NCBI GenBank assembly: GCA_031393955.1
Contig: JANMWI010000046.1
Span: forward strand, 185 to 64,184
Length of the DNA: 64,000 nt
DNA from: Acidobacteriota bacterium
GTDB taxonomy: Bacteria; Acidobacteriota; Vicinamibacteria; Vicinamibacterales; 2-12-FULL-66-21
Direction: 5' to 3'
In this document: piece by piece, positions 53,844-63,712 of the stretch
Numbering within the stretch: the stretch's first letter is position 1
Layout: every line of letters begins with the position of its first letter
Program-made: the position numbers and the translations under genes
Notes under the pieces: model-generated
Database searches by the model: none
Told to the model about the DNA's origin: nothing
The model's input: only the letters and a program-made list of their open reading frames with translations

Positions 53844-55511
53844 TCAGGCTGCTCCGCCGCCTGCCGCCGCGCCAATCGCGGCGTCGACGATCGACTGCGC
53901 CTCGGCCAGGATCCGGCGCAGGTGTTCCTCCCCCTGGAAGCTTTCCCCATAGATCTTGTAAATCGGCTCGGTGCCCGACGGCCGCGCCGCGAACCAGCCG
54001 TGCCGGGCGACCACTTTCAGGCCGCCAATCGACGCGCCATTGCCGGGCGCATGGGTGATGACGGCCTCGATCGGCTCGCCGCCAAGCTGGTCCTGCCGGA
54101 TCTGCTTCGCGGACAGCCGTCCGAGCTGCGCCTGCTGGGCCGGCGTCGCCGGCGCTTCGACCCGGTCGTAGACCGGCGCCCCCATCTCGCGGGTCAGTTC
54201 GCCGTAGACGTCGCCTGGATCGCGGCTGAGCACGGCGGTGATCTCGGCCGAGAGCAGCGCCGCGACGATCCCGTCCTTGTCGGTCGTCCAGGCGCTGCCG
54301 TCGGCGCGGACGAAGGACGCACCGGCGCTCTCCTCCCCGGCAAAGCCGAGCGACCCGCTCAGCAACCCGTCGACGAACCACTTGAAGCCGACCGGTACCT
54401 CGTAGACAGCGCGCCCGATCTTCGCGCCGACGCGGTCGATCATCTGGCTGCTGACCAGGGTCTTGCCGATCGCCGCCTCGGGCCGCCACCGCGGCCGGTG
54501 CTGGAACAGGTAGAAGATCGCCGCCGACAGGTAGTGGTTGGGGGGCATCAGCCCGCGGCTCTTCGTCACGATGCCGTGCCGATCGTGATCGGGATCGCAG
54601 GCAAACGCGATGTCGAAGCGATCCTTGAGCGCGACCAGGCTGCCCATGGCGTACGGAGACGACGGGTCCATCCGGATCCGGCCATCCCAGTCCATCGTCA
54701 TGAAACGGAAGGTCGGGTCGACCTGGTCGTTGACGACCGTGAGGTCCAGCCCGTAGCGCTCGGCAATCCGCCCCCAGTAGTGCACCCCGGCGCCGCCGAG
54801 CGGGTCGACTCCCATGCGGACGGCAGCGCCGCGAATCGCCTCCATGTCGATGATCGTGCCGAGGTCGCCGACGTAGGCGGTCAGATAGTCATGGCGGTGG
54901 GTGGTCGGTGCGCGCAGCGCCGCCGCAAGAGGGAGACGCCTGACGCCGCGGAGATCCTGCGCGAGCAGCTCGTTGGCCGTGGCCTCGATCCCGGAGGTGA
55001 TGCCGGGTTCGGCGGGCCCGCCGTGCGGCGGGTTGTACTTGAAGCCGCCATCGCCCGGCGGATTGTGCGACGGGGTGATGACGATGCCGTCGGCGAGGCC
55101 GGCGGTGCGGCCGCGGTTGTGTGTGAGAATCGCGTGGGACACGGCCGGCGTCGGCGTGTACTCGTCCTCGGCCGAGAGCATGACCTCGACGCCGTTGGCG
55201 GCCATCACTTCGACGGCGCTGGCGAGCGCCGGCGTCGAGAGCGCGTGGGTGTCGGCGCCGATGAACAGCGGACCGTCGATCCCGTTGGCCGCGCGGTACT
55301 GACAGATCGCCTGGGTAATGGCGAGGACGTGCCCCTCGTTGAACGAATTGTCGAACGATGAGCCGCGATGGCCGGAGGTGCCGAACGCCACCCGCTCGGC
55401 CGGCGAGGACGGGTCCGGCCGTCCGGTGTAGTAGGCCGAGATGAGTTTCGGCACGTCGACGAGCAGCGATGGCTCGGCGGGCTGTCCGGCACGCGGATTG
55501 ATTGTCACCAT
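53844..55511 (-). CDS. pgm: Phosphoglucomutase (alpha-D-glucose phosphate-specific)
   Basis: The start is at the ATG for '[28 protein letters not shown]' (compare E. coli Pgm N-terminus). The phosphoserine loop is '[14 protein letters not shown]'. 'DPDHDRHG' and 'RPSGTEP' are present. Confidence 0.95.
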
Positions 55512-55520
55512 AAAGCGTTC

Positions 55521-56810
55521 ATGACCGATAACGACGGAATCCTGCTGGCGCCGCTCCAGCGTGAAAGCTTCGACTACTTCCTCCGCGAGGTCAACCCCGC
55601 CAACGGCCTGATCGCCGACAAGACCCAGGCGCACTGGCCCGCCAGCATCGCCGCCACCGGCCTTGCCCTGGCCGCTTATCCGGTCGGCGTCGAGCGGGGA
55701 TTCGTCGCCCGCGATCACGCCGTCCGGCTCACCCTGGCGGCGCTGCGGTTCTTCCAGACCAGCCCGCAGGGCACGGCTCCGGACTGCACCGGCTACAAGG
55801 GCTTCTATTATCACTTTCTCGACATGGCGACCGGGGCGCGCGCCTGGCGCAGCGAGCTGTCGACGATCGACACCACCTTCCTGCTCGCCGGCGGCCTGAC
55901 CGCCGCCGCCTACTTTACCGGCGAGTCCGGAGACGAGGCGGAGATCCGCGCCCTTGCCGACGCGCTCTATCGCCGCGCCGACTGGCGGTGGGCGCAGAAC
56001 GGCGGCGCGACCGTCACGCACGGCTGGCGGCCGGAGCGCGGCTTCCTCCCCTACCGCTGGTCGGGCTACGACGAAGCGCTGCTGCTCTACGTTCTCGGGC
56101 TCGGCTCGCCGACCTATCCGCTGACCGCCGACAGCTACGCCAGCTGGCTGTCGAGCCATCGGTGGCGGAAGGTCTACGGCGACGAGTACCTCTATGCGGG
56201 GCCGCTCTTCATTCACCAGCTGTCCCACTTGTGGCTCGACCTGCGCGGGATCCAGGACGCCTACATGCGGCCGCGCGGCAGCGACTACTTCGAGAACAGC
56301 CGGCGGGCCACCTGCGTCCAGCGCGAATACGCGATCAGGAACCCGCGCGGCTTCGCCGGCTACCACAAGGACTGCTGGGGCGTGACCGCGAGCGACGGGC
56401 CGGGGCCCGCGCTGCTGACGATTGACGGGGTCCGGCGGCGGTTCTTCGACTACGCGGCGCGTGGCGTGCCATACGGGCCGGACGACGGGACGATTGCGCC
56501 GTGGGCGGTGCTCGCGTCGCTGCCGTTCGCGCCCGAGATCGTGCTGCCGGCGGTGCGCTACTTCGTCGACCGCCTCGACGTCCGGCAGCCTGATGCCTAC
56601 GGCTTCAAGGCGACGTTCAACCAGACCTACCCGGCGCCGTCGAGCGGCGCCGCGGGCTGGGTATCGCCCTGGAACTTCGGGCTCAATCAGGGCCCGATCG
56701 TCCTGATGATCGAGAACTTCCGCAGCGGGCTGATCTGGCGGCTGATGCGGAACTGTCGCTACGTTGTCGACGGCCTGCGCCGCGCCGGGTTCACGGGGGG
56801 GTGGTTGTGA
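55521..56810 (+). CDS. Glucoamylase-family / GH144-like (endo-beta-1,2-glucanase family) protein, no signal peptide
   Basis: The ATG at 55521 begins MTDNDGIL. '[20 protein letters not shown]', '[11 protein letters not shown]', '[13 protein letters not shown]' and '[21 protein letters not shown]' are present. Confidence 0.8.
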
Positions 56811-56829: not shown

Positions 56830-57861
56830 TCACTTGCCGCCGGGCGCCGTCGTCGCGCGCCGGCGCGCCTGCGCCAGCAGCTGGCGGTGCCAGCGATCGC
56901 GATGGCTGGTGACCTGCAGCGGCCGCAGCGCCAGCCGGCCCGCCCCGCCAATCGCCTCCTGCAGGTGGTCGCGCTCCGCCAGGCTGTCCTCGAGGTCGTC
57001 GTCGCCGGCCAGTTCGAGGCCGGCTTCCCGCGCCATCACCAGCGCGCGCGCGTGGACCGAGAGCTCGAGCTCGAGCCGCAGCAGGCAGTACATGTCGGCG
57101 ACCACCTCCGGCGGGAATCGTGACCGCATCTCCTGCAGATACTGGCCGAAGCGGGTCAGCGTGAACGTCTCCGAGGCGACCAGCTGCAGGACCTCGATGT
57201 CGAGATCCATCCCGGCCCCCATCCATTCCCGCGTCGCCCGCTCGCTCCGCTCGTAGACGAACAGCAGCAGCAGCGGCAGCGTCAGCATGACGACGCCGGT
57301 CAGCAGCACCGGCGGGAGCGGCAGCAGGTTGAAGCCGGCATGAATCACCACCGCCACGGCGAGCCCCGGCAGGAACGCCAGCACCCCCCGGCGCGGATAG
57401 CGGTCGGTCAGCGCCCGGCCGAGCGTCGCGAAGATCGCCGTCGCGCCGCCGTGCAGCATCGCGGTGCCGAGGCCGCGCACCAGCCACAGCGCCAGCGGCG
57501 CGTCGCCGAGCGTCCGCAGATAGAGGACGTTCTCGACCAACGCGAAGCCGGCGCCGACCGCGAATCCCTGGACGGCGGCATCGACCAGGAAGCCGGCACG
57601 GCCGCGCAGGATCAGCACGACGATCACGGCGGCCTTGAGCGTCTCCTCCAGGAACGGCGCGACGTAGCGGCTGTCGACGTGCGCGCTCTGGAGGTCCATG
57701 CCGAGCGCCGACCACGCCCACAGCGAGACGACCGCCGTGCAGGCGCCGACCGCGACGGCGGAGAGGATGGCGCGCTGCGGCACGAGCCGGAAACTGTCCA
57801 TCATGAAGAGGACAGCCAGGAAGCCGACGACGGGCAGGAGGGCGACGGCAGCGTCGAGCAT
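56830..57861 (-). CDS. PrsW-family intramembrane metalloprotease with ~140-aa cytoplasmic C-terminal extension
   Basis: 'FLEETLKAA' (EExxK), 'FALVENVLY', 'HGGATAIF' and 'HAGFN' lie within about eight TM helices. The ATG overlaps the upstream gene's TAA by 1 nt (TAATG). Confidence 0.8.
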
Positions 57862-60809
57862 TATTTGAGAATCTTGACCGACAGCATCGCTTCGCGGCGC
57901 GGCGCGTAGCCGTCCTCGAACGCCACCGCCGCGCCGGCCGACACGGTCAGCTCGAGCGTCGACAGCAGGCCGAAGCGGAAATCAACCTGCGCGCCGGTGT
58001 CGGTCAGGGTGCGACGCGCCTGGCGGGCATCGAGATTGGTGGCGAGGCCGCCGACAAACAGCGACGGCCGCGCCCACGACGCATAGAAGCCCGGCCGGCC
58101 GACGCGGCGGAAGCGGATCGGCGGCAGGTTCCACTCGATCATCGACTTGACGAACGTGCGTCCGGCGATCTCGTTGAGCGACGCGCCCGGAAAGCTGTAC
58201 GGCTCGCGATAGCGCTTCTCGTCGCGGTGATCGACCCAGTTGTTGCCGAATGCGCCGAAATAGAAATTGGCGAACGGCTGGGCGCGATTGCCGGGCGAGA
58301 ACCCGGCCGCGGTCCGCAGCCAGATCGAGGAATGGCCGGCCGGCATCGCGAGGCCGCGATCGAACGCGCCATGGAAGCGCGGCACCATCCGGCCGTTCAG
58401 CTGGTTGCCCTGGGCGTCGACAAACCAGCGCCGGCCGGTCTCATCGTCGACGTGGCCGAGCGAGCTGCGCAGGTCCTGATCGGTCAGCCGGGCATCGACG
58501 GTGAAGAGCCGCGTCACGTCGACCGCGACGTTCTGGAATTCCGGCAGCCGATCGAGGTTGCCGGCGAAGCGGGCGCTGATGTCGAGCTCGACGCGGTGCG
58601 GGATGTCGAACAGCAGCGTCTGCTTCTTGCCGACCGACAGCGCGTAGCCCTTGCGGCCGACTTTGGTCGGTCCGAAAAAGTCGTAGAAGTCACCGGCGTT
58701 GAGGTCGAACCGGCCGCGCCAGTCGAACCGCTCGTAGTCAGCCTTGAGGTGCAGGCGCTCGGCGGCCGGCAGGCTGGTCGAGGGGGAATAGGTCGCGACG
58801 AGGCTGGCCCGGTTGAACTGGAGCGGGTCGGAGAAGTTCACCCGCATCCCGACCGCGCCGGTGTCCTTGTAGCCCTGAAAGACCGGGTAGAACGACTCCG
58901 GCTGGAGACCGCCGGCGAGTTTGTAGGTGCCCCGCTCCTTCGTCATCTCGTCGAACCCGATCGCGGCCGGCGAGCCGACCGTCCAGCTCTTGACGATCGG
59001 ATGCTCCTCGGCGAGCCGCTCGCCGAGGAAGGTGATGGCGCTGACGTCCTCGAGCGGGTGCGGCTGGATGCGGGTCGGCACGAAGCCGGCGCCGGAATAC
59101 CGGAAGACGATCAACCCGCCGTCGGCGAGCGGGATCGGCCGGAAGAAGCCGGTCTCCGCGTTCGTCACCGCGTCGAGCTTTTTGGTCGCGAGATCGTAGC
59201 GGAAGATATTGGAAACGCCGGTGAAGTACGAGCTGCCGTAGAGCGCCTGGCCGTCGGGCGTGAAGGTGAAGCCATTGGGCACGGCAGTGCCGAAATCGAA
59301 CGCGGCGACCGGCGTCGCGTCCGGCCCCGTCAACGCGGCGGTGTCGAACACCTGGACGTGCTGGCGGCCGCTGATTTCGCCGAACGACGCGACCAGCCGC
59401 GAGCCGTCGGGCGACAGGTCGAGATCGTAGATCACCGTGCCGTACGGCCACGTCACGACCTGCGTCCAGTCGCGATACGGCGCCACCATCCGGACGAGCG
59501 TGCAGATGCCGTTCAGGTGGCGGATGCCCCACAGCGAGCGGTCGGCGCGGTTGAAGGCGAGGTCGCCGATCCGGGCGTCCTTCTGCAGGATCTCCTGGCG
59601 CTTCGTCTTCGGGTCGAGCCGGACGAGATCCCGGTAGGCGCCGTTGTCGCGCGTGTAGTAGAGAACCTGCTCGGCGGGATTCCAGGCCAGCGACGCGACC
59701 GTGAAAATCGTCGGCCCCTTAATGTCGGCGAGCCGTTCGATCCGGCCGGTGCCATCCGAGATGGCGGCGACGTGCGACACCACTCCAGGGTAGTTGAGCG
59801 CCGCGTAGATTTTCTTCCCTTCGGGATCGTAGAACGCCCGCGAGACGGATCCGAGCGCCCGGGTCGTGATGTCGGTCGACGGCGTCACCGGGAACTTGCG
59901 GATCGCGGCCAGATTCTGCCGCTGAAAGATCACCTCGTCGGTCTCCCAGGCCGCCCACGCCTTCTCGATAGACGAGCCGAATACCTGCCGGAACTGGGTC
60001 GCATAGTAGGCGCGGCTGCCATCGCGGCGCGACACCCACTCGATCACCTTCTCGGGCGAGTAGTGGCGGCCAAGCCAGGTCATGAAGCGGGTGCCGTAGA
60101 GGTAGGAGTTGACCTGGACCTGAAAGTCGATCTGCGTCCCTTCGCTGACCAGTCCCAGCGGATCGTAAAACGGCGTGCCGTCGCGCACCATCGAACGGAA
60201 CACCATCTCGTCGTAGCCGCTCTGCGCGCGGCCGAGGCCGCCCGACATCCAGGTATCGACGAACACGGCGATGCCTTCGTGATACCAGCGCGGCGACGCC
60301 ACCCGCGGCGTGGTCAGCAGGAAGTAGAGGATCGATTCGGGATGATCGCGGACCGGCGCCACCTTGCCGCCGAACAGCCGCCGGAAGACCCGGTCGGCGC
60401 CCGCCGCCTGGTCCATCGTCGCGATGTGGACCAGCTCGTGGTTCATCAGGATGTTCATCCGCTCGTTGCCGGCGATCGTCTCGAAGGCGAAATTGAGCGG
60501 CGCGATCTCGACGGTGACGACATCGCGCGGGACGACCGAGGCGCCGGCGTTGCCGGTGTCCGAGATGTCGGTGAGGAGCAGGAAGACCGGTTTCTTCGGA
60601 TGGAAGTCGAACAGCCGCCGCTGAAACGCCAGCGAGTTCAGGAACGTCCGCGCCGCGTGCGGCACCAGGAAGGTCTCGGTCGGATCCAGGTAGACCAGCC
60701 GCATGCCGGAGACGCCGACGACGCTCAACTGGGCGGCGGCCGGCCGGGAAACGGACAGCACGGCGAGGAGCAGACAGGTCGCCGCGACCCCTCGCGGCGG
60801 AATGCGCAT
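57861..60809 (-). CDS. 982-aa secreted multidomain protein: HExxH peptidase-like N-domain, TolB-like beta-propeller middle, beta-rich C-terminal domain
   Basis: The signal peptide is 'MRIPPRGVAATCLLLAVLSVSRPAAAQ'. The zincin-like motifs are 'NHELVHIA' and, downstream, 'WYHEGIAVF'. PD40-like units 'DLSPDGSRLVAS' and 'FTPDGQALYGSS' are present. The ~330-aa C-terminus has alternating beta-strand character. Confidence 0.7.
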   Translation of the reverse strand: MRIPPRGVAATCLLLAVLSVSRPAAAQLSVVGVSGMRLVYLDPTETFLVPHAARTFLNSLAFQRRLFDFHPKKPVFLLLTDISDTGNAGASVVPRDVVTVEIAPLNFAFETIAGNERMNILMNHELVHIATMDQAAGADRVFRRLFGGKVAPVRDHPESILYFLLTTPRVASPRWYHEGIAVFVDTWMSGGLGRAQSGYDEMVFRSMVRDGTPFYDPLGLVSEGTQIDFQVQVNSYLYGTRFMTWLGRHYSPEKVIEWVSRRDGSRAYYATQFRQVFGSSIEKAWAAWETDEVIFQRQNLAAIRKFPVTPSTDITTRALGSVSRAFYDPEGKKIYAALNYPGVVSHVAAISDGTGRIERLADIKGPTIFTVASLAWNPAEQVLYYTRDNGAYRDLVRLDPKTKRQEILQKDARIGDLAFNRADRSLWGIRHLNGICTLVRMVAPYRDWTQVVTWPYGTVIYDLDLSPDGSRLVASFGEISGRQHVQVFDTAALTGPDATPVAAFDFGTAVPNGFTFTPDGQALYGSSYFTGVSNIFRYDLATKKLDAVTNAETGFFRPIPLADGGLIVFRYSGAGFVPTRIQPHPLEDVSAITFLGERLAEEHPIVKSWTVGSPAAIGFDEMTKERGTYKLAGGLQPESFYPVFQGYKDTGAVGMRVNFSDPLQFNRASLVATYSPSTSLPAAERLHLKADYERFDWRGRFDLNAGDFYDFFGPTKVGRKGYALSVGKKQTLLFDIPHRVELDISARFAGNLDRLPEFQNVAVDVTRLFTVDARLTDQDLRSSLGHVDDETGRRWFVDAQGNQLNGRMVPRFHGAFDRGLAMPAGHSSIWLRTAAGFSPGNRAQPFANFYFGAFGNNWVDHRDEKRYREPYSFPGASLNEIAGRTFVKSMIEWNLPPIRFRRVGRPGFYASWARPSLFVGGLATNLDARQARRTLTDTGAQVDFRFGLLSTLELTVSAGAAVAFEDGYAPRREAMLSVKILK

Positions 60810-60862
60810 GCGTAAGAGTAAGGGATGAAGACCCGCGGAGGGAAGCCGCCGGCGTAGAGGAA

Positions 60863-60891
60863 GGGGACAGGCACCCGCGGCGCCCGTCCCC
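60863..60891 (-). terminator. Stem-loop 8 nt downstream of the anti-sigma stop codon (candidate intrinsic terminator)
   Basis: The minus-strand RNA GGGGACGGGCGCC-GCG-GGUGCCUGUCCCC forms a 13-bp stem including two G-U pairs. It is followed by UUCCUCU. Confidence 0.4.
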
Positions 60892-60898
60892 CAGGGTG

Positions 60899-62269
60899 TT
60901 AGTTCGCGAGCGCGGATGCGAATTTCGGCGTCATCAGCGCCGACGCGAAGCCGTCGCTCTGAAGCGCCTGGGCGAACGCCGCCGACTGCATCGCCTTCGG
61001 CAGGGCGCCATCCGCCAGTGCGCGGCGGAACGCGTCGGAGCTGAGCGCCCGGGCGAAGCTGTCGTTGCTGAGCGCCCGCGCCACCGCCGGGTCGGAGAAC
61101 GCCCGCGCAATCGCCGGATCCGCCATCGCCCGCATCATCGCGCCGTCGCTGAGCGCTTTCGCGATCGCCGGATCGGCCAGCGCGCGGCCGAGCGCATCGC
61201 TGGTCAGCGCCCGCGCGACCATCGCATCGCCAAGTGCCCTCGCCAGCGCCTCGTTGCTGAGCGCCCTGGCGGCGGCGTCGTTGCCGAGCGCCCGCCGGAC
61301 CGCGTCGTTGCTGAGCGCTCTCGCGGTGACGGCGTCGGTCGTTGCGGCACGCGCGGCGGCGCCGTCGGCGCTCGCCCGAATCTTGGCCTCGGCGCTAATC
61401 GCCCGCGCCATCAAGGGATCCGACAACGCCTGCACCAGCGCCGGGTCCGCAATGGCGCGGCGGAAGCCCGGGTCGGCCAGCGCGCTGGCCATCCCCTTGC
61501 TCGCCAGCGCCTGCGCGACCGCCTGGTCGGACAGCGCCCGCGCGACCGCCGGATCGGCCAGCGCGGCGCGGAAGTTGGCATCGGCCATCCGGGCGGCGAG
61601 CGCCGGCTCGGCGAGCGCGCCAGCCATCCCCTTGCTCGCCAGCGCCTGCGCGACGGCCTGATCCGACAGCGCCTGCGCGATCGCCGGATCCGACAGCGCC
61701 GCGACGACCGCGGGATCCGCCAGCGCCTGCCGGACGGCGCCGTCCGACAGCAGCTTGCGGGCGTTTTCATCCTTGATCAGGCGATCGAAGGTGTCGCTCT
61801 GCAGGAACTGCTGCGCCGACGTGTCGCCAAGCTTCACGTCCGACGCCGCCATCTGCGGCTCGGCCGCCTGATAGCGGGCCGCCTGCCCGATCGTTCCTTC
61901 CGTCCCCTTGCCGGTCGGGGGGTAGCCCAGAATCGCAAACGTTACGAGAACGACCGCCGCGGCCGCGGCCAACCCGATCATTGTCTTTTTTGCCATGAAC
62001 CTGTCTCCTTGGTCAGTGCGCCCGGCCGCAACACCGCCACCGATCCGACCTGTCACCGCTCGAACCGTCGCCGCAGCCAGATCTTGGGGCGGCGCGACGG
62101 TTCCGAGTTCTTCGACCAGCGCCGTCAATGCCCGCAGCTCCGACAGCCGGGCGCGCGCCTCGGCATTGCCCGCCACACGGCGCTCCCACTCCACCTGCTG
62201 CTCCCGCGTCAGCTCGCCGTCGACGGCGGCGTGCAGCAGTTCGTCGTCTGAAGGATCCACTGGGCTCAT
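60899..62269 (-). CDS. Anti-sigma factor: N-terminal sigma-binding domain, single TM helix, extracytoplasmic domain of ~34 nonapeptide repeats
   Basis: The ATG at 62269 overlaps the sigma-factor stop (ATGA). 'LLHAAVDGELTREQQVEWERRV...ARARLSELRAL' is an RskA/zf-HC2-like domain lacking Cys/His ligands. The TM helix is 'TMIGLAAAAAVVLVTFAILGY'. A 306-aa repeat domain follows. Confidence 0.75.
   Translation of the reverse strand: MSPVDPSDDELLHAAVDGELTREQQVEWERRVAGNAEARARLSELRALTALVEELGTVAPPQDLAAATVRAVTGRIGGGVAAGRTDQGDRFMAKKTMIGLAAAAAVVLVTFAILGYPPTGKGTEGTIGQAARYQAAEPQMAASDVKLGDTSAQQFLQSDTFDRLIKDENARKLLSDGAVRQALADPAVVAALSDPAIAQALSDQAVAQALASKGMAGALAEPALAARMADANFRAALADPAVARALSDQAVAQALASKGMASALADPGFRRAIADPALVQALSDPLMARAISAEAKIRASADGAAARAATTDAVTARALSNDAVRRALGNDAAARALSNEALARALGDAMVARALTSDALGRALADPAIAKALSDGAMMRAMADPAIARAFSDPAVARALSNDSFARALSSDAFRRALADGALPKAMQSAAFAQALQSDGFASALMTPKFASALAN
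60902..61819 (-). repeat. In-frame 27-nt periodic coding repeat (34 nonapeptide units, consensus about [DP]-A-h-x-[RQ]-A-L-[SA]-[DN])
   Basis: I parsed the translation by hand into SAQQFLQSD/TFDRLIKDE/NARKLLSDG/AVRQALADP/AVVAALSDP/AIAQALSDQ/AVAQALASK/GMAGALAEP/.../DGFASALMT/PKFASALAN. There is one single-residue register shift near 'AVTARALSND'. The period also shows in the antisense track ORF 60896..62251. Confidence 0.85.
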
Positions 62270-62862
62270 CGTTCCATCCACATCGTCAGGGCGCCGGCGA
62301 GCTGCTGGCGCGCGCTGTAAAGCCGCGACTTCACGGTTTTGACCGGAATCCCGATCGCGTCGCTCATCTCGTCGTAGCTGAGCGACGCAAAGTGCCTGAG
62401 GACGATGACTTCACGGTACGGCGCCGGGAGCGTCAGGATGGCGCGCTTGACATCCCGCCGCCGTTCCGCCGTCTCGACCGCGTCCGGCTCCTGGTGCCGC
62501 GCCGCCGCCGCGTCCAGTCCGCCGTCGAGAAGCACCATCGCCGGCCGCCGCCGCAGGTTGAGGCACTCGTTGGTCAGGATGCGGTAAATCCAGCTGAAAA
62601 AGCGCCGGTCCGCGTCGTAACTGGAGAGCTTCTCGTAGGCCCTGATGAAGGCGGTCTGGGCGGCGTCGCGGGCATCCTCTTCATTGCCGAGCATCCGCAG
62701 CGCGACGTTGAAGAGCACCCCTTGATACCGGACCACGAGCGCCGCGAACGCCGCGCCGTCGCCGTCCAGACACCGTCGGACGACAACCGCATCGTCCAGG
62801 CTCTGGTCCAAATACACCGCAGGGGCTGGAAAGTTGGTGGGCAACGGGCCGAACCTTACCAT
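62266..62862 (-). CDS. ECF (group 4) RNA polymerase sigma factor
   Basis: Region 2 is 'AFAALVVRYQGVLFNVALRMLGNEEDARDAAQTAFIRAYEKL...FFSWIYRILTNECLN'. Region 4 is 'LPAPYREVIVLRHFASLSYDEMSDAIGIPVKTVKSRLYSARQQL'. The start is at ATG 62862 or GTG 62817. The further-upstream part of the track ORF is Arg/Pro-rich. Confidence 0.9.
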   Translation of the reverse strand: MVRFGPLPTNFPAPAVYLDQSLDDAVVVRRCLDGDGAAFAALVVRYQGVLFNVALRMLGNEEDARDAAQTAFIRAYEKLSSYDADRRFFSWIYRILTNECLNLRRRPAMVLLDGGLDAAAARHQEPDAVETAERRRDVKRAILTLPAPYREVIVLRHFASLSYDEMSDAIGIPVKTVKSRLYSARQQLAGALTMWMER

Positions 62863-62891: not shown

Positions 62892-63239
62892 ATGGCGCGC
62901 CCCCCCCGCACCTGGAGCCTCGCGACGTCGGTCGAAGCGGTCCCGGGAGCCACGATCCTGAGCGCCCACGGCCGGATCGGCATTCGCACCGCACGCGCCT
63001 TCGCCGACGCGCTGGCCGCGGCCGGCGCCGGGCCGGTCGTGATTGACCTGACCGGGGTGGACTACATTTCGGGGCCCGGCCTGACGGCGCTGCGCGACGC
63101 GGCATCTGTCGGCAGCCGCCGCGCGGTCGTCTGCGGCCTGCAGGAGGCGGTTCGCATCACGCTGGAACTGGCCGGCCTCCTCGACGACCTGCCCGCCGAG
63201 CACACCAGGGAAACCGCCCTGGCGCGGCTCTCCGGCTAG
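62892..63239 (+). CDS. STAS-domain protein (anti-sigma-factor antagonist, SpoIIAA-like)
   Basis: A 115-aa protein. 'VVIDLTGVDYISGPGLTALRDA' contains the conserved Ser position of STAS anti-anti-sigma factors. It is transcribed divergently from the ECF sigma gene. Confidence 0.8.
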   Translation: MARPPRTWSLATSVEAVPGATILSAHGRIGIRTARAFADALAAAGAGPVVIDLTGVDYISGPGLTALRDAASVGSRRAVVCGLQEAVRITLELAGLLDDLPAEHTRETALARLSG

Positions 63240-63262: not shown

Positions 63263-63712
63263 CTAGGTCAGCAATCGCGGATCGATGGCATGCTGGCCGT
63301 CGCCGACAATGACGACGCGGCTCGCGGCGGGGTGCGCGGGATTGAGCAGGATGTTGACGGTCTCGGGAACGATGGCTGAAGGCACGCGCAGGAGCGGCGC
63401 CGAGCCGTCGGCGAGCCAGTCGTCGCCTATCGCGCGCGTCGTGTCCATGCGCGACGGCCAGTCAGGCGGCAGGCGCCCGGCGGGGACGGTCTCAACTCGC
63501 AGGTCCGCCGGCGCCTCGATCGTGAAGAGGCGGTAACGAACCGGCAGCCCCTGAAGGTCGACTTCGAGGTGGACTAGAACTTCCAGCAGCGCCGCGGCGG
63601 GGCTGGACGCGCAATAGACGATGCGCTGACCGCGGCTATGCCAGCGTCCCGGGGTGCGCAGGCCGCCCTCGCCCGCCAGGGACTTGTGGTTGCTGATCCG
63701 CCACAGCCGCAC
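63263..63712 (-). CDS. RES-domain toxin (RES-Xre type II TA family)
   Basis: 'GGLRTPGRWHSRG' (Arg), 'YCASSPAAALLEVLVH' (Glu) and 'LRVPSAIVPE' (Ser) are present. The GTG start overlaps the upstream stop by 1 nt. Confidence 0.85.
   Translation of the reverse strand: MRLWRISNHKSLAGEGGLRTPGRWHSRGQRIVYCASSPAAALLEVLVHLEVDLQGLPVRYRLFTIEAPADLRVETVPAGRLPPDWPSRMDTTRAIGDDWLADGSAPLLRVPSAIVPETVNILLNPAHPAASRVVIVGDGQHAIDPRLLT

What the first reader, a model, noticed from the sequence alone, without database searches (positions are those of the whole stretch)
56830..62862. Same-strand ECF sigma, anti-sigma, HExxH/beta-propeller protein and PrsW-type protease: a candidate self-contained regulated-proteolysis module
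The order on the minus strand is as follows.
- ECF sigma (62862-62266).
- ATGA overlap.
- Repeat-rich anti-sigma (62269-60899).
- Hairpin and an 89-nt gap.
- 982-aa secreted HExxH/propeller protein (60809-57861).
- TAATG overlap.
- PrsW-family intramembrane protease (57861-56830).

In Bacillus subtilis, PrsW is the site-1 protease that cleaves the anti-sigma factor RsiW. Extracytoplasmic proteases must then trim the stump before site-2 cleavage.

Here a PrsW homologue and a large secreted zincin-like protein are translationally coupled and sit directly downstream of a sigma/anti-sigma pair. This suggests that the locus encodes both the switch and its dedicated proteolytic machinery. The repeat domain would be the sensor or substrate. 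That arrangement, and the extra ~140-aa cytoplasmic tail on this PrsW, are not something I know to be described.
Basis: inference. Interest (0 to 1): 0.7.

Follow-up and report, generated by a model that had tools for sequence, protein, structure and literature searches.

The report
Conserved SigW–RsiW–PrsW-like envelope signalling cluster
This is a gene cluster, conserved in hundreds of double-membraned bacterial species, that places homologues of the Bacillus stress switch (SigW sigma factor, RsiW anti-sigma, PrsW membrane protease) next to two undescribed envelope proteins, so it probably encodes a self-contained proteolytic stress-signalling pathway not yet described in the papers I could search.

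Summary
The four genes are present at the stated coordinates, with the ATGA and TAATG overlaps, the 89-nt gap and the hairpin.

**Homology.** The sigma's best solved relative is B. subtilis SigW. The anti-sigma's N-terminal domain best matches RsiW from the same crystal entry. The last gene is a PrsW-family protease with all catalytic motifs and a conserved ~140-aa cytoplasmic helical tail.

**The 982-aa protein.** It has a signal peptide, an HExxH…E domain, a TolB-like propeller and a C-terminal Omp85-like barrel. It is probably anchored in the outer membrane, not free.

**Synteny.**
- Across at least five phyla the big protein is followed by this PrsW in 71 of 75 loci.
- The other four loci carry a PrsW gene elsewhere in the cluster.
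- The orthologous sigma lies upstream in 34 of 44 loci.

**New findings.**
- The repeat domain is a separate conserved gene in most lineages and is fused to the anti-sigma here.
- An ECF-like promoter motif marks the sigma and that repeat gene.
- The sigma probably starts near 62817/62811, not 62862.
- A STAS gene is linked in Acidobacteriota.

**Verdict.** A functional module is well supported. PrsW cleaving the anti-sigma is plausible but untested, and the role of the big protein is open. I rate it a new variant of a known kind.

The parts
62892..63239 (+). STAS-domain protein (anti-sigma-antagonist fold), divergent from the sigma gene
   Evidence: Pfam STAS 6.2e-10 and STAS_2 3.1e-9. It lies in the same divergent position in most Acidobacteriota loci. 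It is present even where sigma and anti-sigma are absent (L021, L024, L025, L026, L028, L029, L078).
62810..62839 (-). Bipartite ECF-promoter-like motif CACCAACTTTCC-N9-GGTGTATTT (AAC-N16-TGTA, sigmaW-like)
   Evidence: It is the only strong instance in the 64-kb window (38 bits; the next best separate site scores 14.2). The DNA is conserved across phyla, with an invariant spacer length and AT-rich 'codons' in a 70% GC genome. It abuts the sigma start in 50/58 loci. A second copy lies upstream of the separate repeat-protein genes in 21/31 loci.
62266..62817 (-).
   Evidence: Pfam Sigma70_r2 and r4_2. The best NCBIfam models are SigW, but below the equivalog cut-off (134 vs 209 bits). The best PDB hit is SigW 5WUQ_A, E = 2.9e-27. 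Orthologues (E <= 1e-34) sit in the cluster across phyla.
62060..62269 (-). Anti-sigma domain (residues ~1-70) of the fused anti-sigma/repeat protein; RsiW-like, no zinc motif
   Evidence: It has an ATGA overlap with the sigma gene. The profile of 17 orthologous N-termini hits RsiW 5WUQ_C at E = 6.5e-9 and RskA at 1.5e-3. No HxxxCxxC motif appears in alignment A4.
61916..61984 (-). Single transmembrane helix (residues 96-118) of the anti-sigma/repeat protein
   Evidence: Hydropathy scan.
61724..61915 (-). Conserved periplasmic juxtamembrane 'head' (residues ~119-182): PPTG..GTIGQAARYQA..DVKLGD..QQFLQSDTFDRLIKD
   Evidence: This is the most conserved part of the repeat-protein family across phyla. 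An HMM built from 26 loci finds it directly upstream of the big protein in nearly all loci that have enough sequence.
60902..61723 (-). About 30 tandem 9-residue repeats (ALSDPAVAQ-like), periplasmic
   Evidence: Tandem Repeats Finder period 27 nt. The same 9-aa periodicity, with different consensus units, is seen in other phyla. There are only spurious low-complexity Pfam hits.
60862..60892 (-). GC-rich 14-bp hairpin after the anti-sigma stop (terminator or attenuator-like)
   Evidence: Fold of -39.5 kcal/mol, z = -2.6. Relatives have a hairpin, often followed by a T-tract, at the same position.
60815..60820 (-). TACTCT, a -10-like TAnnnT hexamer 5 nt before the ATG of the 982-aa gene (possible own promoter, leaderless mRNA)
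   Evidence: ATACTCTTACGC(C)ATG is conserved in close relatives. Other TAnnnT hexamers occur at the same place in more distant Vicinamibacteria. This is inference only.
57861..60809 (-). 982-aa envelope protein: signal peptide (1-26), HExxH...E zincin-like domain (27-303), TolB-like beta-propeller (310-581), linker helices, C-terminal beta-barrel (625-982)
   Evidence: - AlphaFold2 model: pLDDT 78, pTM 0.75.
- Foldseek matches TolB and other propellers with probability 1.0.
- H124, E125, H128 and E178 are invariant across phyla.
- Weak Pfam Omp85_2 hits in 14/37 members.
- No Pfam, NCBIfam or PDB sequence match for the N-domain or the barrel.
- The family is found in at least 591 species genomes and 639 clusters at 50% identity with E < 1e-30.
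57250..57861 (-). PrsW-family intramembrane protease core (residues 1-204, 7 TM helices)
   Evidence: - Pfam PF13367 5.9e-21, above the cut-off.
- E72, E73, K76, F106, E110, H137, H174 and N178 are invariant in A2.
- The model has seven TM helices.
- The weak best Foldseek fold match is APH-1 (E = 0.2).
- TAATG overlap with the upstream gene.
56833..57249 (-). Conserved ~140-aa helical cytoplasmic tail of PrsW (residues 205-343)
   Evidence: The tail is detected in every PrsW next to the big protein across phyla (E 1e-19 to 1e-71) and has many invariant residues. It is all-helical in the model. It has no Pfam match and no PDB fold match. The positive-inside pattern of the loops places it in the cytoplasm (sequence).

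Best explanation
The locus is one instance of a widespread, conserved envelope-signalling module of double-membraned bacteria. The module is built around homologues of the Bacillus SigW / RsiW / PrsW regulated-proteolysis switch.

**Components**
- A SigW-like ECF sigma.
- An RsiW-like anti-sigma domain, anchored by one transmembrane helix.
- A periplasmic nonapeptide-repeat protein. It is a separate gene in most lineages and is fused to the anti-sigma domain in this window.
- A 982-aa protein with a signal peptide, a zinc-protease-like domain, a TolB-like propeller and a probable outer-membrane barrel.
- An inner-membrane PrsW protease with a conserved cytoplasmic helical domain.
- In Acidobacteriota, a divergent STAS gene.

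**Proposed mechanism (inferred, not shown)**
1. At rest, the anti-sigma holds the sigma at the inner membrane.
2. An envelope signal, sensed through the repeat domain and/or the outer-membrane protein, makes the conserved juxtamembrane head accessible.
3. PrsW cuts it as site-1 protease, as PrsW cuts RsiW.
4. A site-2 protease encoded elsewhere, and cytoplasmic proteases, then free the sigma.
5. The sigma activates its own promoter and, where the repeat-protein gene is separate, that gene's promoter.

The big protein either degrades or trims the repeat domain, or acts as the outer-membrane sensor.

**Status of each step**
- Shown: gene content, homologies, synteny, fusion, shared motif.
- Inferred: every cleavage step, the localisation, and the direction of signal flow.
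For: **Homology to all three partners of the experimentally defined pathway**
- Sigma to SigW (5WUQ_A, E = 2.9e-27; the best NCBIfam models are SigW).
- Anti-sigma domain to RsiW, from the same PDB entry (E = 6.5e-9).
- PrsW family, with all four catalytic motifs invariant.

**Synteny**
- Big protein followed by tail-type PrsW in 71/75 genome loci from Acidobacteriota, Gammaproteobacteria, Ignavibacteriales, KSB1, Zixibacteria, Balneolaceae and Bacteroidota.
- The other four loci still carry a PrsW gene. In L030 it lies upstream of the sigma. In L052, L057 and L070 it is a paralogous PrsW on the opposite strand.
- Reciprocal search from PrsW finds the big protein upstream in 57/58 loci.
- The orthologous sigma is upstream in 34/44 loci and downstream in three or four more.

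**Links between components**
- Rosetta-stone evidence: the anti-sigma domain is fused to the TM, head and repeats of the repeat protein here and in several other lineages, while the two are neighbouring genes elsewhere.
- A shared sigmaW-like bipartite motif lies at the sigma gene and upstream of separate repeat-protein genes.
- One predicted protein fuses PrsW plus tail to the big protein (P0278).

**Topology and expression**
- The PrsW catalytic residues lie toward the periplasmic side of the membrane helices. This fits a juxtamembrane periplasmic cut.
- A terminator-like hairpin and a -10-like hexamer before the big gene suggest that the proteases are expressed independently of the sigma in this lineage. 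That is expected for upstream signalling components.
Against: - No experiment and no expression data were available.
- The NCBIfam equivalog thresholds for SigW and PrsW are not reached. These are relatives, not orthologues, of the Bacillus proteins.
- The extracytoplasmic part of the anti-sigma is unrelated to anything known, so the PrsW cleavage site cannot be mapped.
- Seven Vicinamibacteria loci have STAS with the repeat protein and/or the big protein and PrsW, but no adjacent sigma or anti-sigma. The trio can therefore exist without this sigma next to it.
- The sigma-type motif upstream of the repeat-protein gene is equally what one would see if the repeat protein, the big protein and PrsW were regulon outputs.
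- The motif's geometry at the sigma start codon is odd for a promoter.
- The zincin and outer-membrane-barrel assignments rest on motifs, an AlphaFold model and weak Pfam hits only.
- No site-2 protease is in the cluster.
Confidence: 0.55

Rival explanations
1. The repeat protein, the big protein and PrsW are the output of the sigma, not its activators. They would form a sigma-controlled envelope maintenance or quality-control machine, for example processing or degrading periplasmic or outer-membrane proteins. The anti-sigma would be inactivated by other, unlinked proteases.
For: - An ECF-type motif lies 53-202 nt upstream of separate repeat-protein genes in 21/31 loci. ECF sigmas commonly sit next to their main target operon.
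- Loci exist with STAS plus the trio but without the sigma.
- The big protein combines a protease-like domain, a TolB-like propeller and an Omp85-like barrel, which would suit outer-membrane protein handling.
Against: - The anti-sigma domain is fused directly to the TM, head and repeats of the repeat protein in this window and in several other lineages. This makes the repeat protein part of the switch itself.
- The sigma, anti-sigma and PrsW trio matches the Bacillus pathway component by component.
- In this lineage the only copy of the motif is at the sigma gene. A terminator-like hairpin plus a -10-like hexamer separate the big gene and PrsW from the sigma transcript.
Confidence: 0.27
2. PrsW here is an export or self-processing peptidase that releases its own C-terminal domain, or processes the big protein, as a toxin or effector. 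This would resemble the PrsW-dependent polymorphic toxin systems. The sigma would be incidental.
For: PrsW domains with C-terminal toxin domains have been described by comparative genomics (PMC3482391). One predicted protein fuses PrsW plus tail to the big protein (P0278).
Against: - The tail is highly conserved rather than polymorphic, with many invariant residues across phyla.
- By the positive-inside pattern it is cytoplasmic.
- No immunity-like gene is conserved downstream; flanking genes differ between loci.
- There are no PADLOC hits.
- The same paper separates toxin-linked PrsW from signalling-type PrsW fused to cytoplasmic domains.
Confidence: 0.04
3. The adjacency is fortuitous. The four genes are unrelated neighbours that happen to lie on one strand.
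For: None beyond the 89-nt gap with a hairpin that interrupts the operon.
Against: Gene order is conserved in 71/75 and 57/58 loci, while the flanking genes differ. There are also gene fusions and a shared motif.
Confidence: 0.01

Closest known systems
Bacillus subtilis sigmaW / RsiW / PrsW / RasP regulated intramembrane proteolysis
   Same: The sigma is SigW-like (5WUQ_A, E = 2.9e-27). The anti-sigma domain is RsiW-like (5WUQ_C, E = 6.5e-9). The single-pass anti-sigma has an extracytoplasmic domain. The PrsW-family protease has the EExxK, FxxxE, H and HxxxN motifs. The promoter-like motif AAC-N16-TGTA resembles the sigmaW consensus TGAAAC-N16-CGTA (the consensus is from my own knowledge; the motif is).
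   Different: - In Bacillus, prsW is unlinked to sigW-rsiW (established knowledge). Here it is in the cluster in every locus examined.
- The host has two membranes.
- The anti-sigma domain lacks the zinc motif.
- The extracytoplasmic domain is a nonapeptide-repeat array with a conserved head, usually encoded by a separate gene.
- There is an extra protein, probably in the outer membrane, with protease-like, propeller and barrel domains.
- PrsW carries a 140-aa cytoplasmic domain.
- The NCBIfam equivalog cut-offs for SigW and PrsW are not met.
E. coli sigmaE / RseA / RseB / DegS / RseP envelope stress pathway
   Same: An ECF sigma is held by a single-pass anti-sigma. A periplasmic accessory protein is encoded with the pair. 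Site-1 cleavage occurs on the periplasmic side, and the signal originates at the outer membrane (established knowledge). SigmaE is the second-best PDB hit of the sigma (1OR7, E = 5e-23).
   Different: Here the site-1 candidate is a PrsW-type intramembrane glutamic/metallo-protease, not a DegS serine protease. The accessory protein is membrane-anchored and repetitive. A dedicated outer-membrane protein is encoded in the cluster.
FecA / FecR / FecI-type cell-surface signalling
   Same: An outer-membrane beta-barrel protein is genetically linked to an inner-membrane anti-sigma and an ECF sigma. The signal is relayed across the periplasm and involves proteolysis of the anti-sigma (PMC8144685 and PMC9249621, listed; established knowledge).
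   Different: The barrel protein here is not a TonB-dependent transporter. It has no plug or signalling domain and carries an HExxH domain and a propeller instead. The anti-sigma is RsiW-like, not FecR-like.
[quoted passage not shown]
   Same: Both are ECF regulatory systems that physically reach from the cytoplasm to the outer membrane.
   Different: In Dma, a single polypeptide carries both the anti-sigma domain and the outer-membrane barrel (taken from the paper's abstract). Here these are separate proteins with a repeat protein between them, and two proteases are part of the set.
PrsW domains fused to cytoplasmic signalling domains (PilZ, cNMP-binding, FHA, Zn-ribbon)
   Same: A PrsW core is followed by a cytoplasmic C-terminal domain. 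Such proteins were proposed to be signalling peptidases (PMC3482391; the Leptospira PrsW-PilZ protein LIC_20173, PMC12943098).
   Different: The tail here is an all-helical domain without any Pfam or PDB match. It is always paired with the 982-aa protein.

Membership tests
ECF (group 4) sigma-70 factors | Sigma regions 2 and 4 only, about 180-200 aa, no region 3 or 1.1 | tested here: met
   Pfam Sigma70_r2 7.7e-16 and Sigma70_r4_2 6.9e-14. TIGR02937 (sigma70-ECF) scores 105.9 bits against a cut-off of 42.9.
SigW orthologues (NCBIfam equivalogs NF007223 / TIGR02948) | Score above the curated equivalog cut-off | tested here: not met
   134.4 bits against 209, and 123 bits against 243. SigW is nevertheless the best model and the best PDB hit. 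The sigma is SigW-like, not a SigW orthologue.
Class I anti-sigma domain (RsiW / RskA / zf-HC2 type) | N-terminal helical anti-sigma domain encoded immediately downstream of the sigma, followed by one TM helix | tested here: met
   ATGA overlap. The profile hits RsiW at 6.5e-9 and RskA at 1.5e-3. The TM helix is at residues 96-118.
Zinc-binding anti-sigma (ZAS) subfamily | HxxxCxxC zinc motif | tested here: not met
   There is no Cys in the aligned region of any of 17 orthologues. Pfam zf-HC2 matches only weakly (best 3.7e-4; 0.1 for the window protein).
PrsW family (Pfam PF13367, MEROPS M82) | Score above the Pfam gathering threshold | tested here: met
   75.4 bits against 23.5.
PrsW family (Pfam PF13367, MEROPS M82) | Four motifs EExxK, FxxxE, H, HxxxD/N (as listed for B. 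subtilis YpdC in PMC12943098) | tested here: met
   E72-E73-x-x-K76, F106-x3-E110, H137 and H174-x3-N178 are all invariant in 30 homologues.
PrsW orthologues (NCBIfam NF033739 equivalog) | Score above the equivalog cut-off | tested here: not met
   29.7 bits against 225.
PrsW function (site-1 cleavage of the cognate anti-sigma) | Cleavage of the anti-sigma extracytoplasmic domain | not testable with these tools
   This needs co-expression and cleavage assays.
Gluzincin (clan MA) metallopeptidases | HExxH on one helix and a downstream Glu as third zinc ligand on the next helix | tested here: inconclusive
   H124-E-x-x-H128 lies in helix 114-132 and invariant E178 (WYHEG) in helix 174-188. There is no Pfam, NCBIfam or PDB sequence match to any peptidase family. 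Foldseek on the whole model reported only propellers.
TolB-like / PD40 beta-propellers | Beta-propeller fold | tested here: met
   Foldseek matches TolB chains with E about 1e-7, probability 1.0. There are weak TolB sequence hits and PD40 and SGL Pfam hits in 23-27 of 37 members.
Omp85 superfamily outer-membrane barrels | C-terminal 16-stranded membrane beta-barrel; POTRA domains in classical members | tested here: inconclusive
   The model shows about 16-18 long strands at residues 625-982. Pfam Omp85_2 matches only weakly (best E = 0.0016, in 14/37 members). There is no PDB sequence hit, no POTRA domain, and the C-terminus ends in K/R rather than an aromatic residue.
STAS / anti-sigma-factor antagonists | STAS fold; in SpoIIAA-type members, a phosphorylatable Ser in a DSSG motif | tested here: inconclusive
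   The STAS Pfam match is met. By my own reading, the motif is YISGPG, with Gly at the canonical Ser position. No partner kinase is encoded in the cluster.

The most novel reading that the evidence does not exclude
This would be a previously undescribed trans-envelope signalling machine that spans several phyla of double-membraned bacteria. In it, an outer-membrane-embedded protein (zinc protease, propeller and barrel) and an inner-membrane PrsW protease with a new cytoplasmic domain jointly process a nonapeptide-repeat periplasmic tether, which is or partners the anti-sigma. That processing switches on a SigW-like sigma factor in response to outer-membrane or periplasmic damage. In Acidobacteriota a STAS protein would plug into the PrsW tail as a second, cytoplasmic input or output.
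Probability: 0.35. Interest if true: 0.85.

Novelty: new variant of a known kind. Interest (0 to 1): 0.72.

Why it matters
- PrsW-dependent activation of an ECF sigma has been worked out mainly in Firmicutes, where the protease gene is unlinked and the trigger is still poorly understood. Here the same three players are hard-wired into one cluster in hundreds of double-membraned species, including abundant soil Acidobacteria and marine Woeseiaceae.
- The cluster adds three conserved but unannotated elements: the repeat protein, the 982-aa envelope protein, and the PrsW tail.
- This gives a defined, testable parts list for how a PrsW-type switch senses the envelope. It also assigns a likely role to a large family of 'hypothetical proteins': at least 591 species genomes, and 639 clusters at 50% identity.
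- It may reveal a new way of coupling the outer membrane to transcription.

Tried and rejected
1. **Sequence and profile searches of the big protein.** I searched the whole protein, its N-terminal HExxH domain (A3) and its C-terminal barrel (A5) against PDB chains. Only weak TolB hits for the propeller and spurious antibody hits appeared, or nothing.
2. **Foldseek of the whole 982-aa model.** It returned only beta-propeller matches.
3. **Foldseek of the PrsW model.** The best fold match was weak (APH-1, E = 0.2), and nothing matched the tail.
4. **Pfam and NCBIfam** on the repeat protein, the PrsW tail and the N-domain gave no real family, only low-complexity artefacts.
5. **A first regex for AAC-N16-19-CGT** upstream of the annotated sigma starts found nothing. 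The motif lies inside the annotated ORF, and it was found only after aligning the DNA.
6. **Sigma-70 promoter and terminator consensus scan** of the region was uninformative.
7. **Literature.** I found no paper describing a PrsW gene inside an ECF operon of diderms. The ECF reclassification paper does not mention PrsW or STAS in its main text, and its supplements are not held.
8. **PADLOC** gave no defence-system hits.
9. **Readings rejected.** I rejected the idea that the sigma's N-terminal 17 residues are coding. The conservation there is at the DNA level, uses AT-rich codons in a 70% GC genome, and includes a 1-nt indel in L017. I also rejected a polymorphic-toxin reading of the PrsW tail.
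Full report
**1. Observation**

The window is about 70% GC. Its closest relatives are Vicinamibacterales (Acidobacteriota) metagenome-assembled genomes. ORF listing confirms the four minus-strand ORFs at the coordinates given.

- ATGA, where the sigma stop overlaps the anti-sigma start.
- TAATG, where the 982-aa stop overlaps the PrsW start.
- An 89-nt gap after the anti-sigma. It contains a 14-bp GC hairpin at 60892-60862.

A convergent glucoamylase-family gene (55368-56810, +) closes the cluster. A divergent STAS gene (62892-63239, +) opens it.

**2. What the four proteins are**

*Sigma.* It has regions 2 and 4 only. Its best NCBIfam models are the two SigW equivalogs, but below their cut-offs. 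Its best solved relative is B. subtilis SigW (5WUQ_A, E = 2.9e-27).

*Anti-sigma.* It has a ~70-aa N-terminal domain, one TM helix (residues 96-118), and about 335 periplasmic residues. The periplasmic part consists of a conserved head followed by about 30 nine-residue repeats. Pfam alone does not recognise the N-terminal domain. A profile of 17 orthologous N-termini (A4) hits RsiW at E = 6.5e-9, and RsiW is the partner of SigW in the same crystal entry. It then hits RskA. There is no zinc motif.

*PrsW.* This is a bona fide PrsW-family member (75 bits against 23.5). The EExxK, FxxxE, H and HxxxN motifs are invariant in 30 homologues. The model has seven TM helices and an all-helical C-terminal domain at 205-338. 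The positive-inside pattern puts the N-terminus in the periplasm and the tail in the cytoplasm. The tail has no Pfam or PDB counterpart.

*The 982-aa protein.* It has no Pfam or NCBIfam family. The AlphaFold2 model (pLDDT 78, pTM 0.75) shows these parts:
- a signal peptide (1-26);
- an alpha/beta domain (27-303) carrying HExxH (124-128) on one helix and an invariant Glu (E178, WYHEG) on a later helix;
- a beta-propeller (310-581) that Foldseek matches to TolB;
- linker helices;
- a C-terminal array of 16-18 long strands (625-982). Fourteen of 37 family members give weak Pfam Omp85_2 hits for this part.

The HExxH…E residues are invariant from Acidobacteriota to Gammaproteobacteria and Ignavibacteria. 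I read it as an outer-membrane-anchored protein with periplasmic protease-like and propeller domains. The barrel and zincin assignments remain inferences.

**3. Synteny**

The 982-aa family is large:
- more than 6,600 hits at 90% clustering;
- 639 clusters at 50% identity with E < 1e-30;
- relatives in at least 591 species genomes.

In 80 genome loci spanning Acidobacteriota, Gammaproteobacteria (Woeseiaceae, Steroidobacteraceae, Lysobacterales), Ignavibacteriales, KSB1, Zixibacteria, Balneolaceae and Bacteroidota, I scanned six-frame ORFs with the window's proteins. The results:
- The tail-type PrsW follows the big gene in 71 of the 75 loci that have enough downstream sequence.
- In L030, PrsW sits upstream of the sigma.
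- In three Steroidobacteraceae loci, a different 570-aa PrsW-domain protein is encoded on the opposite strand between the big gene and the sigma.
- So every cluster has a PrsW-family gene.
- Starting instead from PrsW in metagenomes, 57 of 58 loci have the big gene upstream.
- A sigma orthologous to the window's (E <= 1e-34, against 1e-8 to 1e-25 for other ECFs in the same loci) lies upstream on the same strand in 34 of 44 loci, and downstream in three or four more.
- Flanking genes differ between loci.

**4. A fifth component and a gene fusion**

In most non-Vicinamibacterales loci there are two genes between the sigma and the big gene.
- The first is a ~255-aa anti-sigma: the RsiW-like domain, one TM helix and a beta-rich periplasmic domain.
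- The second encodes a single-pass protein with a short N-terminus, a TM helix, a conserved juxtamembrane head (FPP..G..GT[IV]G.A.RYQA.Q…DV.L.D…Q.F[LM]Q[ST]D.F..L.KD) and 20-50 tandem nine-residue repeats. The repeat unit varies (SDAFRQALA, PGVFEALSK, NKDVAAALA and others).

An HMM of the head finds this gene directly upstream of the big gene in nearly every locus with enough sequence.

In the window, the anti-sigma domain is joined directly to this TM, head and repeats. The same fusion occurs throughout Vicinamibacterales and independently in some Gammaproteobacteria and Ignavibacteria. It ties the repeat protein to control of the sigma. It also identifies the conserved head as the likeliest recognition or cleavage region.

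One predicted protein (P0278) also fuses PrsW plus tail to the big protein. This could be real or a gene-calling artefact.

**5. Regulation**

Aligning DNA around the sigma starts revealed a bipartite motif, CACCAACTTTTC-N9-CGTGTATTT. It has these properties:
- The spacer length is fixed.
- The conservation is at the DNA level. The motif uses TTT and TAT in a 70% GC genome and tolerates a 1-nt indel.
- It resembles the sigmaW consensus (AAC-N16-TGTA against AAC-N16-CGTA).
- It is unique in the 64-kb window (62839-62810).
- It abuts the sigma start in 50/58 loci.
- Independently of the training set, it occurs 53-202 nt upstream of separate repeat-protein genes in 21/31 loci.
- Only 88 hits occur in 2.84 Mb.

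Consequences for the window:
- The sigma's first ~17 codons are probably not coding.
- The only motif copy is at the sigma gene.
- Between the anti-sigma and the big gene, most relatives have a GC hairpin, often with a T-tract.
- Vicinamibacterial big genes have a TAnnnT hexamer 5-12 nt before the ATG.

This suggests that the big gene and PrsW are transcribed separately, possibly as a leaderless mRNA. One puzzle remains. At the sigma gene the start codon sits where a normal ECF promoter geometry would place it upstream of the transcription start.

**6. Interpretation**

The data establish a conserved functional module, and I am confident of that. The most economical mechanism is the Bacillus one transposed to a double-membraned cell. 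PrsW performs site-1 cleavage of the anti-sigma/repeat protein at the periplasmic face. An unlinked site-2 protease completes the release of the sigma.

The big protein's role is open. It could:
- dock the repeat domain and report outer-membrane status;
- do both.

The main rival is that the repeat protein, the big protein and PrsW are the sigma's output. The motif upstream of the repeat gene favours this. So do the seven Vicinamibacteria loci that have STAS with the repeat protein and/or the big protein and PrsW but no sigma. Against it are the anti-sigma fusion, the three-way homology to SigW, RsiW and PrsW, and the apparent separate promoter for the big gene and PrsW.

The STAS gene occurs in Acidobacteriota only, and the PrsW tail is universal. 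The roles of both remain unexplained. A cytoplasmic input to PrsW is conceivable, as proposed in general for PrsW proteins fused to signalling domains (PMC3482391).

**7. Comparison and novelty**

The closest system is sigmaW / RsiW / PrsW / RasP. Membership of the ECF, anti-sigma-domain and PrsW families is met, but orthology-level thresholds are not.

The logic also resembles two other systems:
- sigmaE with RseA, RseB and DegS;
- Fec-type cell-surface signalling, which links an outer-membrane barrel to an anti-sigma.

Neither uses these proteins. Dma anti-sigmas of Bacteroides span both membranes in one chain (PMC10927553).

I found no paper describing a PrsW gene embedded in an ECF cluster of diderms, the repeat protein, or the 982-aa family. 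The supplements of the ECF reclassification paper could not be checked. I therefore class it as a new variant of a known kind, of substantial interest, with the mechanism still to be tested.

Noticed in passing
window 63263-63712 (-): This gene encodes a RES-domain protein (Pfam RES 1e-32), probably the toxin of a RES-Xre toxin-antitoxin pair. Its partner would lie beyond 63712, near the window edge.
   Followed up: partly
window 62810-62839 (-), and loci L001-L164: The sigmaW-like bipartite motif directly abuts the sigma start codon. That codon is ATG in many phyla, and in-frame GTG or TTG in the window. This places the start codon 5-8 nt upstream of the transcription start expected from a normal ECF promoter. 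The cause could be a leaderless mRNA with unusual spacing, or something else; it is unresolved.
   Followed up: partly
L052:6206-7942 (-), L057:3425-5257 (-), L070:9967-11676 (-): In Steroidobacteraceae the tail-type PrsW is missing. It is replaced by a 569-578-aa polytopic protein, on the opposite strand between the big gene and the sigma, whose C-terminal half is a PrsW domain with intact motifs.
   Followed up: yes
P0278 (1365 aa): A single predicted protein joins PrsW plus tail to the N-terminus of the 982-aa-type protein, via the latter's signal-peptide-like helix. It is either a real fusion or a gene-call read-through. P0280 and P0292 instead carry an unrelated ~280-aa beta-rich N-terminal extension.
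   Followed up: partly
L021, L024, L025, L026, L028, L029, L078: These Vicinamibacteria loci have the divergent STAS gene next to the repeat protein, big protein and PrsW (or just the big protein and PrsW). They have no sigma or anti-sigma and no copy of the ECF-like motif.
   Followed up: partly
L017:5769-5799, L042:5688-5718, L018:5210-5239: In some fused anti-sigma/repeat genes, a second copy of the ECF-like motif lies inside the coding region just upstream of the TM segment. It could be a relic of the separate repeat-gene promoter, or an internal promoter that makes a repeat-only isoform.
   Followed up: no
window 60815-60820 (-), and relatives: A TAnnnT hexamer lies 5-12 nt before the ATG of the big gene, with no Shine-Dalgarno sequence. 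This hints that leaderless transcripts may be common in this lineage.
   Followed up: no
window 62892-63239 (+): By my reading, the STAS protein has YISGPG where SpoIIAA-type proteins have DSSG, so a Gly replaces the usual phospho-serine. It may therefore not be regulated by a partner-switching kinase.
   Followed up: no
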